Source: Octopus vulgaris (taxonomy: Eukaryota). From it: a stretch of DNA of 64,000 nucleotides. Below are positions 3,236 through 63,690 of the stretch, piece after piece. The notes beneath the pieces are model-generated. The model searched no databases. It saw nothing but the letters and a program-made list of their open reading frames with translations, and was not told where the DNA came from. The position numbers were made by a program, and so were the translations under genes. Location of the stretch: NCBI GenBank assembly GCA_951406725.2, contig OX597818.1:88908001-88972000 (forward strand). Direction: 5' to 3'. Positions within the stretch are counted from its first letter, which is position 1. Each line of letters opens with the position of its first letter.

Positions 3236-4208
3236 CATGTGAATGTTTGTTAGTCATCAAGAATATTGTCTTTTTTCTAAGTGTTATATGTATGTACATA
3301 TGTGTGTGTGTATGGACGTGTGTGTATGCATGTGTGTGTCTTTATTATAAATGAATATGAATAACGTCTTTGTATACAAAAGGTGTACGTATTTATTGGA
3401 TGGCTTTTCGTATGTGCAACTACACGTTCTTTTCGTTTTCTTAGTTATCAAAAATTAGGCAAAAATCTCGCGGAATATATTGGTATATAAATTAACAAAA
3501 TCCTTCAATTTTGAAGCTTCTAAGCGTAGTAGGTTTTGAAATGGTTAATTTTAAGGGTAACATTTTATCGCAACTATGCAGTGATTAGTCTAAAAATAAG
3601 ATACATACATATAAACCAGCTGTAAGCATTCGAATTTTAATATTACGTAGATTTACAATAAAAAATGCCAGGGATATAATATATTTTGAACTCCCATTTT
3701 ATTTTGCATTACCACACCTACAATTTGTTTTCTTGCTTTCTTTCTGAGACAACTTCAGTTCTAATTTACAACCTAGATAAACGCGGAGTTCACAAACCCA
3801 TGTAAATGCTTTTGATCAAGCAGGAATTGAAATAGCTTCCAACATAACATTTTAAGAAATTCTGACATCGTTTAATATATATGGCAAGAGTGTGACTATT
3901 TGCGGGAGATTCGCTTTGAAGTAAAACACACACGCACACACATACACACACGCGCGTGGACATACGTAGACACACACACTCATACAAACACACATACATA
4001 CACGCACATAATACATACATACGTACATATGTGTATGTGTGTGCTTGTGTGTGTGTGCTTATGTGTGTGTGCACGTATATCTAGAGAGAGAAAGAGAAAT
4101 AATGATGCATATATATACATATATATATATATATATAAACATACACACACATACATATACACATATGTGCATACGTAGATGTGTATATGTGTGTGTGTGT
4201 ATATATAC

Positions 4209-5920: not shown

Positions 5921-7851
5921 ATCTCCGAAAACGCATAAAACTCCAGAAAGGAAAGAAGAGAACACAACAGAGATATCACTGCAAACAGTAAATAAAAGGC
6001 TAAACCAAAGTAAAATCTCTGTATAGCTAACCAACCCTGAAATAAATAGATTAGCACAGCATATCAACAACATACACAAGCGAATACTGAAGCGCAAAAC
6101 AAGAACAAAAATAACACATACCAAAGCAGATGAGTTATAACCGAGGACAGAGACGAACCTAGTGAAGAAATAACAGAAGTAAAAGAACTAGACATCACAC
6201 AGTCGATAAATATGGAGCAGCGTAAACGTCTCCGCAGGCTACAAAAAAATAAACAGTTCTAAGAAAGGATAGATACAACAGAGCCTTACAAGTAATAATG
6301 ACCATATCAAAAGATACACTAGATAGCAGCAAACTAAATGACTTGATCTACTCAACAGCTGTAGTGATATCCAGGGAAACTAGACTTGATCTTTACAAGG
6401 AAAAAATCCCAGCCAAATCTCAAACCACAAAATGAAAACAGATCATAAATAAAATTCAAAAACAAAAGAAAGACTTTTCGCTACTTTGTGAATTAGAGAA
6501 AAAGGGATCAAATATGAAAAGTAAAAAAGGGCCCATGTAACAAAACAATACAACATAAAAATAAAGAAGATACTTGTGATGTAAAAGAAAAAGTTTAACA
6601 GGGCATAGCAGTAAAAACTTGCTGCATAAAACGGTATGAAAATCGGGAACGCTTCTTCCAACAAAATAGAGAATTAAAAAAAAACACAAAGTTTTATAGA
6701 AAGTTTTTAAAAAACTATATCGGTAGATGCTAAGCCTACATCAGTGATTCAGTCATACTGGGAAGCAATATGGAGCAGATCAAAAAAGCACAACAAGAAT
6801 GCTTAGTAGATTAGTAGGGAAAAGGAGAGGAAGAACGCAATAGAACAACAGATATGGCCCACCATCAGAGGTCAAGAGATCATGGACACATTGAAGAGTA
6901 GCAGCAACTGGAAAACTCCAGTTGAAATACCTCACTAGTACCCATAACCACTTAGCGGCAGCGTTCAATTTATTGATAAGAATCAACACCAAAATGGATG
7001 CTGGAAGAGCAGATCACCCTAATTCCCAAAAACAAAGACACCGTACTCCCACAAAATTACGGACCAGTTACATGCCTATTGACATCCTACAAAACTCTAA
7101 CATCAGTCATCTATAACCGGCTTATGAAGCACCTGGAAAACAGCAGTGTCTTACCAGAAGAACAAAAAGGGTGCCGGAAAGGGAAATGTGGCTATAAAGA
7201 GCAACTTCTGGTAAACCGAGCAATTATGGAGGCCTGTAAGAGGAGAAAGACAAACCTGAACATGACTTGATTGATTACCAGAAAGCATTCGACAGTGTTC
7301 CACAATCATGGTTACTGGAATCTCTCTATACAATAAAGGTAGACTCCACCACTACTAATATATATTAAACATGCAATGGCAAAACGGTAACCAGTATAGC
7401 ATTAAAAAATGACCTATAAGTTATTAAAACCTGTCCTATGCTCCATACGAAGAAAGATTTTCCAGGGAAACTTACTGTCAACCCTGCTTTTCTGCCTTTC
7501 TCTGACCCGCTAACAACCTTGCTAAACGAAACCACCATGGCTTGTAGGTGCTACGGACAAAAATAACCATCTCTTGTACATGTATGACCTAAACGTTTTC
7601 GTTAAAAGCACCATGGAACAGAAAAACGTTATCAAAATTGTTGAGTATCAGCAATGACATCTAAATGAGCATGGGGCTGGACAATTGTGCCAGTCACACT
7701 GAGAAGAGGCAAATTATTCAGCACTGCAAACACCGCACTCGATATAGACACAGAATCAGACCATAACCGCCCATACAAATATCTAGAAAAAGAAAAAAAC
7801 AGCTAAAATACAACATACAGGAATGAAAGAGAAAATTAGTAGAGCGTATTA

Positions 7852-8160
7852 TTTAATATTTCTAATTACGGTGACCAGTGAATAGATTTCACTGTAAATA
7901 TATATGTTTGTGAAAGCTAGACGGACACCTCAGTCAGCAAATCTCAGTATCCTGGGCTGATGACGGGTTAAGACCCAGAAACATGCATGTCCTCAGCTGT
8001 GAATCTTGGCTGGTGGGGGTGCTTGCCTCCCCTTCACAAATATAAGGACACAGGAAATGTGTCAAAGCCGACAGGAAGCGTCGATGCTTCCTTGGGCTAA
8101 ACAGCGGTGGTGTAATTCCCATACGGACTGTCACATTATGTTGACAGTATACAACCACTC
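7852..8160 (+). mobile_element. Retrozyme-like non-autonomous element (309 bp, non-coding, highly structured, contains a hammerhead)
   Basis: Flanked by TATTA (7847-7851 and 8161-8165). Removing it restores the LINE frame MKEKISRAYYRRVRLIL. It contains a hammerhead and several strong hairpins. Confidence 0.8.
7931..8013 (+). ncRNA. Type I hammerhead ribozyme
   Basis: Stem I CTGGG(7952-56)/CTCAG(7992-96); CTGATGA 7957-63; stem II GGGT-TAAG-ACCC; GAAA 7978-81; palindromic stem III ACATGCATGT; GTC cleavage triplet ending at 7991; stem I extended by CAG/CTG and CAGTCAG/TTGGCTG. Confidence 0.88.
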
Positions 8161-8595
8161 TATTACAGAAGAGTTAGACTAATATTAAACACTAAACTTA
8201 ATGCTAAAAATAAGATAACAGGGATAAACACGCTAGCCATACCAGTCATAAATTACAGCTTTAACATAATATACTGGAAGATCAGTGAATTGAGAAACCT
8301 AAATAGAAAAACCAAAAAACTACTAAACAGCGTATACCATCACAACGCATACGTAGACAGAATATATTTACCCTGCTCAGAAGGTGGCCGTGGCCTGATA
8401 TTGATAGAGAATTACTGTAAAATAACAACGGTTGGACTATAGAAGTACTTAGAAACAAAGAGTGGAAGACTACCTACTGCATGTAGTAAGTAACAGGAGA
8501 AAAAGAAAAGGCTTTTCTCTATACACAAGGAGGCGACAAAATACAAAACAGAAACAAACTACACTGATACACTGACCTCAGATGACAACATAACA

Positions 8596-9233: not shown

Positions 9234-9429
9234 GCACAACTACTACCTCAAGGACATGTATTACATCAAAAATTCTACGTCGGGGATGCAAATCCTCTCA
9301 TTCGCGTACGACATAATGCGGCAACAGCATATATAATATATATAAATATACATGCATACATATATACATATACATATATATATAGATATATAAATTTACA
9401 CCCACTACACGTAGACCCAACGCCAATGA

Positions 9430-10935
9430 AATTAAAGACAATATTGTAGAATTCTATAGAAAACTTCGATTGACAGAATCACTAACCAACTAAAACAACG
9501 ATGGCGAATCACTAGTGAGAAAGAAAAGTAATTATCTACCACCCAAAGGAAAGAATAAACACTAGACGACTTCTGCAACCGTATCCAGAATTTTCCTCAC
9601 ACTATCTATAAACCAAAAATTTACCTAACTTCAACAACATGCAATGGAAGCACCTACCACAGCTAAAAAACGACAAAGACCTGACAATCAAAGAAGCAGA
9701 CAAATGTAGTGCTGTAGTAGGGATGGACACAGAATACTATAAAAACCTAGCATTGTCCATACTAGAAAATGACTCCTTTTGTGAAGATCTTAAATGATCT
9801 TGCATCATTAATACTCAAACATGGAAAAGGCCTGACAGAAAAAGAAAAAGGTACCTAGACGATTGTTTTATCATCTGGAATGGAACATATGATAAACTCC
9901 TGGATTTCAAATCCACACTGAATAATATAACCCCCAACATCCAATTTACGAAGGAATATAGCAAGGAACTGCTCCCATTTCTGGACATTTTGATTTTAAA
10001 AAAGTCCAACAACCAAATTGCAACTGACATTTATTACAAACCAACGGACTCAAAACAGTATCTCCTTTTCAGTTCATGCCATCCTAAACACACCAAAATA
10101 AATATCCCATTCAATCTAGCAAAAAGGATCTGTACAATTGTATCTGACACAACCACTTGGGAACTTCGCATACAAGAACTCAAAATAACACTCATTGAAC
10201 GTTAATACCCACTACACGTACAGAACATGAAATTAAACGTGCCAAAAAATTGGACACAAACACACTAAGGACAACAAAAAGAAACCACACCACACCTTAA
10301 ATCACTCCCATACATATCAACCCACAACCCCAGAAACATTGAAGCATACAACACAATTAAACAAAATCCCCCTCGGCTCACTCAAGACCCGAAAATGAAC
10401 AGCATCCTAAATACACACAAAGTACTAAAATGCAAAAGACAGGACAAATCACTCAAGAGACTCCTAACAAATACAGAACTATACTCAATACAAACGATAC
10501 CAACAGTTAAAAAGTGCAGACGACCTAATTGTGGTACATGCCAATACTTAACTGGAGGCTCGGAATTCACATTCCAGCAAGGACAAAAATTTTCAATTAA
10601 GACCAACTTCACATGTGCTTCCCAGACCTTATCTATGTCCTAACGTGCTCAGGTTGTGGTCACAATTATGTGGGCCAAACGAGCCTTACTTTGAGACGCA
10701 GAACCACGCTGCATAAAGAACAGATTCGTTTCCCTCAATACAAGCAGAGAGCACTGAGAGGACATATCAACAAATGCGCAAGTAATAAAACGCCGAATGT
10801 TCATATCTTCCCATTATACCAATGCAAAGATTCAATCTCCGTACAAGAACACCTAAACAAGGAAAATCTGTTCATACAAAGTACAGACCACACCTCAATA
10901 AAGAAATATGACCATTTAAAAAAATTATACTAAGG
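9430..10935 (+). mobile_element. Penelope-like element (Neptune-type), internally deleted RT plus GIY-YIG pseudogene
   Basis: LKNDKDLTIKEADKCSAVV, YLDDCFIIW (9852), LPFLDI, IYYKPTDSKQYL..SCHP, CRRPNCGTC linker, LIYVLTCSGCGHNYVGQT..R..H. Confidence 0.93.
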
Positions 10936-62142: not shown

Positions 62143-62559
62143 ATCAATCCAAGGAAAACTTAATCATTTCCTTCTAAGGGATGTAAAACATTTAATATTT
62201 ACTGGTTCTTCAGTCAGATACCACAATATAGTAGTCAAAAGATCGGAAATTAAAATGGTATAATTTTAACATATAAATATTAAATGAAATAGAGAAATAC
62301 AATTGAAATATAAAAAATGTATTTACATTATAATATAATATATCATAACGTAAATAAATGTGAATTTTTATAAATTCACTAGTGGATATGAGCCGTAGCA
62401 AATTGTAGGATATATGTTTGTATTACCTATTTGTTATATTATTATATTATATTATATTATATTATATCATATATTCTATTACATCTTTTTATCGTATAAT
62501 TATATTGTATTATGATGTAAATAATTTTTTAATATGTCAGTTGTATTACTCTATTTACC

Positions 62560-63690
62560 TACATAGAATATAACTGGAAGAGGTATCTAGATAGCTGGTT
62601 CATTTTTGGCATGATAGTATAGAGAGGCTTAAAGAATTTCAAGCACTTCTAAATGGACTTGACATAAACATTCAGTTTACGATGGAATATAGCCATTAAT
62701 AACTTCCATTCCTCGACATCCTCATAAAGAAATCCAACAGCCAAATAGAAACAGTCATCTACTATAAGCCCACGGACTCCAAGCAATATCTACCGTTCGA
62801 CTCGTGCCACCCCAGACACACTAGAATTAATATCCCTTTCAATCCGGCAAAAAGGATTTGTACTATAGTATCTGATGCAAGTACCAGGGACACACGGCTG
62901 CATGAGCTAAAGGATACACTCATCATCAGTAACTACCCAACATCACTAATTGATATAGGTTCTCAATGTACCCTACAACATTCACGTGCCCTACAACATC
63001 CACGAACTCAGACTTCTCAAACTAAAGAAGGATTTACAACCAAAAGCCCTAATATGCATATCCACACACAATACCATATACAATGAAGCCTTCGACACCA
63101 TGCTCCAGAACATTCCTTTACTAAAAAGGGACCACCGAATGAATCATCCTCCAAGCGCACACCATCATAAAGAGCAAAAGACAACCCAAGTCAATGAAAA
63201 GTCTTCTAATACAAGCACACGTACACTCGTCAACGACATTGAAACCGTTAGTAAAAAATGCAGAAGACCCAACTGTGGTATATGCGTGAATCTAATTGAG
63301 GAATCGGAGTTCTCCTTCAAATAGGGTCAACGTTTTACAGTGAAAAACAACTTCAAATATGCGTCGGAAAACCTAATATATGTGTTAACTTTCGCAGGGC
63401 ACCGAGAGCATTACATAGGTCAAACCAAAAACAGTCTATGCTCGGGGATGACGCTACATAGGTCCTAGTTTAAAATTCAGGAATACAGAAAAACAGCATT
63501 AAGCGAACACATCGACATTTGCGCCACTAATAAACTATCCAACTTCAGAATGTTTCCCCTCTATAAATTCAGAGACAATGCAAACTATAATCAGCGCATT
63601 AGCAAAGAATCACATTTTATTGCAGAATATAAGGACTTTATGAATGCTTCCACCACAGATGACACTACTGCAAGGATCTTAGAATAATAC
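62560..63690 (+). mobile_element. Second Penelope-like element (Neptune-type), 5'-truncated pseudogene
   Basis: WKRYLD, INIQFTMEYS, LPFLDILIKK, IYYKPTDSKQYLPFDSCHPRHTRINIPFN.AKRICTIVSD, CRRPNCGIC, NLIYVLT...YIGQT. Confidence 0.93.

What the first reader, a model, noticed from the sequence alone, without database searches (positions are those of the whole stretch)
7852..8160. Retrozyme-like 309-bp mobile RNA element caught inside a LINE
Seen: a non-coding insert bounded by TATTA duplications whose removal restores the R4/Dong frame (KISRA-YYRRVRLIL), so it moved as a unit. It is nearly all paired: hairpin CAGTGAA/TTCACTG (7876-94); a long rod closed by TATGTTTGTGAA/TTCACAAATATA (7903-14/8033-44) with a hammerhead at its tip; then GACACA/TGTGTC, AGGAAGC/GCTTCCT and ACTGTCA/TGACAGT hairpins. 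It has no tRNA head, TIR, poly-A tail or ORF. Established: animal non-LTR retrozymes are few-hundred-nt hammerhead elements that replicate through circular RNA using an RT supplied in trans. Inference: a cephalopod retrozyme family; I cannot tell whether it is already described. This is the best candidate for a novel system in the window.
Basis: partly seen in the sequence, partly recalled or inferred. Interest (0 to 1): 0.92.

Follow-up and report, generated by a model that had tools for sequence, protein, structure and literature searches.

The report
Octopus retrozymes targeted by site-specific LINEs
The insert is a clipped copy of a small self-cutting mobile RNA element that carries the insertion marks of Penelope-type retrotransposons, and its family is itself a preferred landing site of other retrotransposons, which insert just ahead of the ribozyme.

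Summary
The insert is real: 7852-8160 between TATTA copies, absent from 15 of 19 paralogous LINE copies. It is not a 309-bp unit but a 5'-clipped copy of a 353-bp tandem unit with a type I hammerhead (7952-7996; helices covary across subfamilies), i.e. an animal non-LTR retrozyme of an octopod (722 exact end-motif hits). Copies have random 5' ends, two fixed 3' ends and head-to-head inversions; in 27 of 33 inversions only one arm carries a ~55-nt tail, as in this genome's intact Penelope-like element: footprint evidence that PLEs move retrozymes. Unexpected: L1/Tx1-type elements insert 20-36 nt ahead of the hammerhead core. An ORF1-only group does so in 30 of 40 sites; an intact APE-RT LINE in 13 of 13 examined, 21 of 62 exact tail matches genome-wide (84, 85), with 17-bp duplications, tandem stacks and a 5'-truncated copy (79). 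Cleavage and circular RNA were not shown. Nine literature searches found no such target; Repbase was not searchable.

The parts
7847..7851 (+). left copy of the TATTA target-site duplication
7852..8160 (+). 5'-truncated retrozyme copy (unit positions ~1-313 of 353; lacks ~40 nt of the unit); 88-95% identical to the other scored copies
   Evidence: loose ends show the missing linker on both sides
7930..7947 (+). unoccupied site at which ORF1-only element X inserts in other copies of this family (duplicated there as 16-21 nt)
7952..7996 (+). type I hammerhead: stem I 7952-56/7992-96, core CTGATGA 7957-63, stem II 7964-77, GAAA 7978-81, palindromic stem III 7981-90, predicted cut after 7991
7903..8044 (+). 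long imperfect rod whose tip holds the hammerhead
8144..8164 (+). fixed 3' end E1 of the family (unit position ~313), overlapping the right duplication
8161..8165 (+). right copy of the TATTA duplication
6980..8592 (+). decayed host LINE (RT region; restriction-like endonuclease type by motifs in paralogs), interrupted by the insert
9428..10879 (+). neighbouring decayed Penelope-like element (RT + GIY-YIG), 50-66% identical in pieces to the intact family; not part of the insert

Best explanation
A non-autonomous hammerhead retroelement (non-LTR retrozyme) of an octopod with a 353-nt unit. Inferred cycle: tandem genomic copies are transcribed; the type I hammerheads, probably paired as dimers through their palindromic stem III, cut out a unit RNA that closes into a circle; a Penelope-like RT/GIY-YIG protein primes at one of two fixed internal sites, copies round the unit across the cut site and inserts 5'-truncated, often inverted copies at AT-rich or (TA)n sites. 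The window copy is one such truncated product in a dead LINE. Because the family is abundant, L1/Tx1-type LINEs and their ORF1-only derivatives use it as a specific target, inserting in sense 20-36 nt ahead of the hammerhead core by target-primed reverse transcription; some composites were then moved again by the PLE machinery. Shown: unit, copy structure, ends, duplications, covariation, LINE junctions. Inferred: transcription, cleavage, circle, which enzyme acts.
For: Unit and tandems: (44 of 122 segments longer than one unit; one ~4-mer, L091; 7 segments with two hammerheads). 3' ends: 103 of 122 at two sites; 27 of 33 inverted pairs have one arm at each; the intact PLE shows the same one-sided 45-nt tail in 3 of 3 loci where both arms are seen (L141, L128, L135), and Craig et al. 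describe this as PLE-typical (passages). Hammerhead: 128 of 162 descriptor hits have 4-5 of 5 stem I pairs against 0 of 14 in shuffled loci; 98% of cells paired, 7 of 10 pairs with two-sided change, 0 of 500 shuffles. Cut-to-cut unit folds as a circle at z -9.2, subfamily G at z -7.3; stem III self-dimer -13.3 kcal/mol. LINE targeting.
Against: No RNA evidence of cleavage or a circle; in the window copy stems I and III have near-zero predicted pairing probability as a monomer. No PLE sharing sequence with the unit among 30 loci of one PLE lineage; other PLE clades were not examined. Sites were picked by similarity to the whole unit or the hammerhead, which enriches long copies. The window's duplication (5 bp or less) is shorter than typical. 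10 of 40 X-tail sites and 11 of 20 further LINE-tail sites are not in this retrozyme superfamily.
Confidence: 0.8

Rival explanations
1. The unit is the solo pseudo-LTR of an autonomous Penelope-like element, left by 5' truncation, not an element with its own RNA cycle.
For: All insertion marks are PLE-type; the hammerhead has the extra base between positions 9 and 10.1 and the palindromic helix III noted for PLE hammerheads (PMC4209133 passages); a preprint derives vertebrate retrozymes from pLTRs.
Against: Upstream of a unit lies another unit, not an ORF; 5' ends are scattered without pile-up; among 53 free 5' ends the shared upstream sequences were X or other repeats; the intact PLE has a different pLTR with its own minimal hammerhead; subfamily G forms 362-bp arrays of five and more.
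Confidence: 0.08
2. The LINE/X association is hitchhiking: one or a few chance insertions into a master copy were amplified as composites by the PLE machinery, with no target specificity.
For: Composites were moved: inverted PLE-type arms include the 3' end of X (L172, L188); some 5'-truncated X have host sequence only downstream (L175, L179, L195). X and host identities are both high in many pairs.
Against: 5'-truncated copies flanked by the host duplication (X in L167; LINE-G in L288/L261, truncated at nt 3308 of 5394); duplications differ by host subfamily and match the local host variant on both sides; X copies 93-95% identical sit in hosts 69-70% identical (L173/L181, L187/L189; correlation 0.19 over 153 pairs, some host stretches truncated); stacks of elements separated only by the target piece (L174, L185, L230, L247); at least three element families and several host subfamilies use the homologous spot.
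Confidence: 0.12
3. The unit spreads as a linear RNA or as a DNA satellite (unequal crossover), with no circular intermediate.
For: Multimeric uncut transcripts or template jumps give the same tandem footprints; the preprint found cleavage in only 1 of 9 tested Xenopus dimers; predicted monomer fold does not favour the active hammerhead.
Against: Dispersed single insertions with duplications and inversions are not crossover products; 91 of 122 segments cross the cut site (selection-biased); helices are kept by compensatory change across subfamilies, including the closing of the unit into one paired circle.
Confidence: 0.2

Closest known systems
Animal non-LTR retrozymes (Cervera & de la Pena 2020, PMC7229834; mussel 350-390 bp, axolotl 331/353 bp)
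   Same: Type I hammerhead with palindromic helix III in a non-coding 150-450-bp tandem unit, GC under 50% (43%), duplications longer than 4 bp, paired circular fold.
   Different: No octopus family in the passages searched (supplement unreadable). Mostly 1-2 units per site in this subfamily; the PLE-type inversion with a one-sided tail is not mentioned there ('inverted' 0 hits); cleavage and circles untested here.
EN+ Penelope-like elements (Neptune-type; Craig et al. 2021, 10.1101/2021.04.23.441226) and retrozymes as PLE derivatives (10.64898/2026.07.22.740005)
   Same: Partial tandems, inverted 5'-truncated upstream copy, tail on one end only, microsatellite bias, hammerhead in the repeat.
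   Different: No ORF; tail ~55 nt rather than 30-40; no sequence match to the one PLE lineage examined. The preprint argues from co-occurrence and pLTR homology in vertebrates; here the evidence is the insertion footprint in a mollusc.
Target-specific Tx1-clade LINEs (Tx1L in Tx1D, Keno in U2, Kibi/Koshi in microsatellites, Tx1-Mar in Mariner; PMC4494074, PMC4640811)
   Same: ORF1 with two RRM-like domains and a CCHC knuckle, ORF2 APE-RT-zf; fixed site in a multicopy repeat; ~17-bp duplication; tandem stacking; sister families with other repeat targets.
   Different: The target is a ribozyme-bearing non-autonomous retroelement, next to its catalytic core; such a target appears in none of the passages or searches seen. 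Tx1 versus L1 clade not resolved by tree.
HAL1 (half-L1) elements (definition recalled; only a search listing seen)
   Same: ORF1 only, own duplications, LINE-like 3' tail.
   Different: Target-biased; the autonomous partner with the same tail was not found in 40 tail sites.

Membership tests
animal non-LTR retrozyme | type I hammerhead motif | tested here: met
   Rfam itself gave no hit
animal non-LTR retrozyme | short (150-450 bp) unit in tandem copies | tested here: met
   353 bp; 44 of 122 segments exceed one unit; ~4-mer L091; subfamily G 362-bp arrays
animal non-LTR retrozyme | non-coding, no LTR structure, GC under 50% | tested here: met
   PBS/PPT not searched formally
animal non-LTR retrozyme | target-site duplications longer than 4 bp when present | tested here: met
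   10-14 bp at 14 of 79 sites read; many others lie in simple repeats
animal non-LTR retrozyme | RNA self-cleavage | not testable with these tools
   only fold predictions
animal non-LTR retrozyme | abundant circular RNA | tested here: inconclusive
   only assembled contigs of runs not on record as RNA
pseudo-LTR of an autonomous PLE | unit flanks an RT-GIY-YIG ORF | tested here: not met
   one adjacent PLE (L021) has its own different terminal repeat; no match in 30 PLE loci
PLE-mobilised insertion | partial tandem, inverted 5'-truncated copy, tail on one end | tested here: met
   27 of 33 inverted pairs; same in the intact PLE
target-specific Tx1-clade LINE (for LINE-G) | ORF1 knuckle + ORF2 APE-RT-zf | tested here: met
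   Pfam; best solved relative human L1 ORF2p, E 1.6e-66
target-specific Tx1-clade LINE (for LINE-G) | more than 20% of copies in one repeat type (criterion in PMC4494074) | tested here: met
   13 of 13 examined; 21 of 62 exact tails in subfamily G, and 9 of the next 20 in other retrozyme subfamilies
target-specific Tx1-clade LINE (for LINE-G) | RT groups with reference Tx1 elements | not tested
   no named Tx1 reference among the 120 hits listed; tree holds only this genome's ten copies
HAL1-like element (for X) | ORF1 only, independent retrotransposition with duplications | tested here: met
   1.68 kb, one broken ORF1-like frame, homologous to LINE ORF1s at E 1e-27 to 1e-42 in 9 of 10, model with two RRM-like domains; own 11-16-bp duplications outside retrozymes (L227, L241, L245)
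HAL1-like element (for X) | shares its 3' tail with an autonomous partner | tested here: inconclusive
   no RT hit upstream in the 20 long loci; the ten autonomous LINEs share only the last ~9 nt

The most novel reading that the evidence does not exclude
The LINEs target this spot in order to borrow the ribozymes. Inside a retrozyme array a LINE is co-transcribed with the host and lies between two hammerheads, one ~290 nt ahead and one ~50-65 nt behind it, so its RNA could be cut out as a defined unit (even closed into a ~5.7-kb circle) and carry a 3' flank that base-pairs with the next target. That would be a three-tier system (PLE, retrozyme, LINE) in which a retrotransposon gets its RNA processing and part of its target choice from another element's ribozyme. 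For: always sense, downstream hammerhead left whole, homologous site kept across hosts whose target sequences differ, and two further ORF2 families beside unrelated hammerhead repeats (3 of 6 sites of the 1131-aa type read, L248/L272/L273; L251 and L270) that do not group with LINE-G. Against: no LINE or X copy ending at the cut site was seen, the elements have their own AATAAA-type tail, X also inserts elsewhere, and Tx1-type LINEs target many repeats with no RNA function.
Probability: 0.22. Interest if true: 0.85.

Novelty: new variant of a known kind. Interest (0 to 1): 0.62.

Why it matters
Which enzyme spreads animal retrozymes is still open: the 2020 paper calls PLEs 'a strong candidate' and the 2026 preprint rests on co-occurrence and homology. 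Here the copies bear the PLE footprint directly, and the genome holds a young retrozyme subfamily (G, copies ~96-99% alike) together with an intact Neptune-type PLE, a pair that makes a trans-mobilisation assay feasible. Second, intact LINEs with a sharp 17-bp target next to a ribozyme add a target class to site-specific retrotransposons and a case of nested parasitism; a new sequence-specific APE LINE is also of interest for targeted insertion work. The window insert alone is an ordinary member of a known class.

Tried and rejected
Rfam at gathering and E-value thresholds: no hammerhead hit; the motif was found by descriptor. Adjacent PLEs (L021, window 9.4-10.9 kb, L141) as the parent of the unit: rejected, different terminal repeats. 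Sequencing runs: no RNA holder listed; contigs of one run guessed to be RNA and three others cover the unit and its linker but cannot show expression, ends or circles; the skip joint across the insert is seen in all four runs but may come from paralogous LINE copies, so it does not date the insertion. Longer fused homologs of X ORF1: none (weak test). My early idea that the LINE site marks the base of stem I: dropped, the rod continues beyond it in the circular folds. A constant distance from LINE end to cut site: 62 nt in subfamilies A and G but about 51-58 in C and D, so not constant. My first 13-of-13 count for LINE-G came from one score group; the genome-wide count (21 of 62) and a look at the first 20 of the other 41 were added as a check. 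Six fetches aimed at further 5' junctions missed them (L281, L283-L287). L214 looks like a related hammerhead by eye but is counted as negative; L212 is probably not an X end but is kept in the 40. Earlier findings of this scan: nothing.

Full report
1. Observation. The stretch 7852-8160 lies between two TATTA copies. In 15 of 19 paralogous copies of the host LINE both flanks are colinear with no insert, and the reading frame runs across the empty site. The + strand folds better than all 100 shuffles (z -4.1), with 61% of bases paired. There is no tRNA gene, no own ORF and no Rfam hit. A type I hammerhead occupies 7952-7996, with an extra base on each side at the foot of stem II and a 10-nt palindrome as stem III.

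2. The family. A genome search gave 1,937 candidates, 40 scored, 62 matches. Exact 25-mers of the hammerhead occur 66 times and exact 20-mers next to the 3' end 722 times, controls 0. Flanks show that the unit continues for 43-44 nt and then restarts: it is a 353-bp repeat and the window copy is 5'-clipped. 110 loci collapse to 79 sites with 122 segments. 5' ends are scattered; 57 3' ends lie at unit position ~313 (E1), 46 at ~15 of the next unit (E2), 19 elsewhere. 44 segments exceed one unit, one is about four units long, and 91 cross the predicted cut site (the sites were chosen by similarity to the unit or hammerhead, so these shares are biased upward). Of 33 head-to-head inversions, 27 have one arm ending at E1 and the other at E2, i.e. 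a ~55-nt tail on one side only. Duplications of 10-14 bp, AT-rich, are readable at 14 of 79 sites; many others sit in (TA)n or (TC)n. Homologous proteins of an associated element come from Octopus and Argonauta, so the host is an octopod.

3. The hammerhead is under selection. A descriptor that ignores stem I finds 162 distinct hits in 996,979 fetched bases; 128 have 4-5 of 5 stem I pairs, against 0 of 14 hits in shuffled loci. Across ten hand-picked copies of about seven subfamilies 98% of cells pair and 7 of 10 pairs change on both sides (0 of 500 shuffles; slid controls at most 50%; related sequences inflate such tests). Stem III is palindromic in each main subfamily, which fits dimeric cleavage as described for metazoan type I hammerheads (PMC4209133, passages). 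The natural cut-to-cut unit of L028 folds as a circle at z -9.2. Against: in the window copy stems I and III are not predicted to form in the monomer, and no RNA data bear on cleavage or circles.

4. Who supplies the RT. The genome holds an intact 753-aa RT-GIY-YIG Penelope-like family with a linker zinc finger (Neptune-type by the criterion in Craig et al., passages). It has its own pseudo-LTR and minimal hammerhead and shares no sequence with the unit, but shows the same architecture: inverted upstream arm, (TA)n targets and a 45-nt tail on one arm in 3 of 3 loci with both arms visible. Craig et al. give these as PLE hallmarks. Mobilisation by a PLE is therefore inferred from the footprint; which PLE lineage moved the older window subfamily is unknown.

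5. LINEs that target the retrozymes. Two sites shared a foreign upstream sequence. It is a 1.68-kb element X (270 candidates) with one broken ORF1-like frame, modelled as two RRM-like domains plus a CCHC knuckle. X sits in sense just ahead of the hammerhead, with 15-21-nt duplications that differ by host subfamily. Its exact 18-nt tail occurs 158 times and is shared by related ORF1-type families. Of the first 40 tail sites in genome order, 20 have a hammerhead within 60 nt, 7 have homologous retrozyme sequence with a damaged core, 3 have only the target piece, and 10 have none; controls 1 of 300 and 0 of 100. A search for the L1/Tx1 C-terminal zinc domain led to ten autonomous LINEs whose ORF1s are homologous to X. 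One, LINE-G (ORF2 1,140 aa, APE-RT-zf), is followed directly by retrozyme subfamily G in 13 of 13 copies examined. G is colinear with the window family (alignment score 65.5 against -40 to -70 for 20 shuffles), has the same two 3' ends, a 362-bp unit and 1,185 exact target motifs, many in arrays. Genome-wide, 21 of 62 exact LINE tails are followed by the G target. Of the first 20 of the other 41, 8 are in other retrozyme subfamilies at the homologous spot, 1 shows only the target piece, 7 are in another repeated target and 4 in none. Five of five full-length copies and one array junction have the same 17-bp duplication; one copy truncated at nt 3,308 has it too, in the local host variant; four hosts show PLE-type inversions upstream of the LINE, so the host insertion came first. 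One truncated copy has a target deletion (L249). A five-copy stack spans two tandem host units.

6. Rivals. Solo pseudo-LTR: not met for the copies seen. Hitchhiking of composites: it happened (inverted arms containing X) but cannot explain truncated copies with host-specific duplications, stacks, or 93-95% identical X in 69-70% identical hosts. A linear or DNA-level route cannot be excluded without RNA.

7. Known versus new. Animal non-LTR retrozymes are described (PMC7229834: parts 2-3 of 6 and passages read; supplement unreadable, and it may list cephalopod examples). Their link to PLEs is argued in a 2026 preprint (parts 1 and 3 of 5 and passages; supplements closed). Tx1-clade targeting of transposons, snRNA genes, satellites and microsatellites is known (PMC4494074 and PMC4640811, passages). 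A cephalopod repeat survey lists L1-Tx1, Penelope and Dong-R4 only by class (PMC8967140, passages). Searches returned no paper on octopus retrozymes or on LINEs targeting hammerhead repeats; the library lacks most subscription papers, and Repbase and Dfam could not be searched. HAL1 and the R2 ribozyme parallel are recalled. Subfamily letters and the names X and LINE-G are mine.

8. Verdict. The insert is a new member of a known class. The system around it, with the PLE footprint and site-specific L1/Tx1-type parasites beside the ribozyme, is a new variant. Interest 0.62; the ribozyme-borrowing reading has probability 0.22.

Noticed in passing
L170 (G000:C10:40595949-40599606), 5' end of X: A full-length X copy outside a retrozyme is preceded by about 25 nt that look like the 5' end of U1 snRNA (recalled motif), as in snRNA-LINE chimeras.
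   Followed up: no
L248, L272, L273 and L251, L270: Two other autonomous LINE families (1,131 and 1,133 aa ORF2) lie 50-85 nt ahead of hammerheads in repeats unrelated to the window family; other copies of the 1,131-aa type have other flanks (L269, L271, L275).
   Followed up: partly
L289, L290, L292, L293, L295, L296, L307: A sister of LINE-G uses another recurrent target of unknown nature, also in tandem stacks.
   Followed up: no
L252, L254, L255; L253: Further LINE families are tied to one unidentified repeat (3 of 3) and to an (ATT)n microsatellite.
   Followed up: no
L023:1217-1445 and L058:1685-1919: The same abundant SINE is inserted in two retrozyme copies with the same 3' junction (unit position ~297); its tail resembles the tails of these LINEs.
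   Followed up: no
L141:50-465: A sister retrozyme subfamily in inverted form sits in the same (TA)n tract as an intact young PLE; the PLE pLTR holds a variant minimal hammerhead with a UUGACAA core.
   Followed up: partly
window 7947 and 7997: The window copy has G/C at two positions of the extended stem I where most family contigs have C/G, a possible compensatory swap.
   Followed up: no
window 62496-63654: A second, more distant decayed Penelope-like element (39-48% identical to the intact family).
   Followed up: no
L230:1400-2880: Another ORF1-like element without ORF2, with a SINE-like tail, upstream of a stack of Y elements.
   Followed up: no
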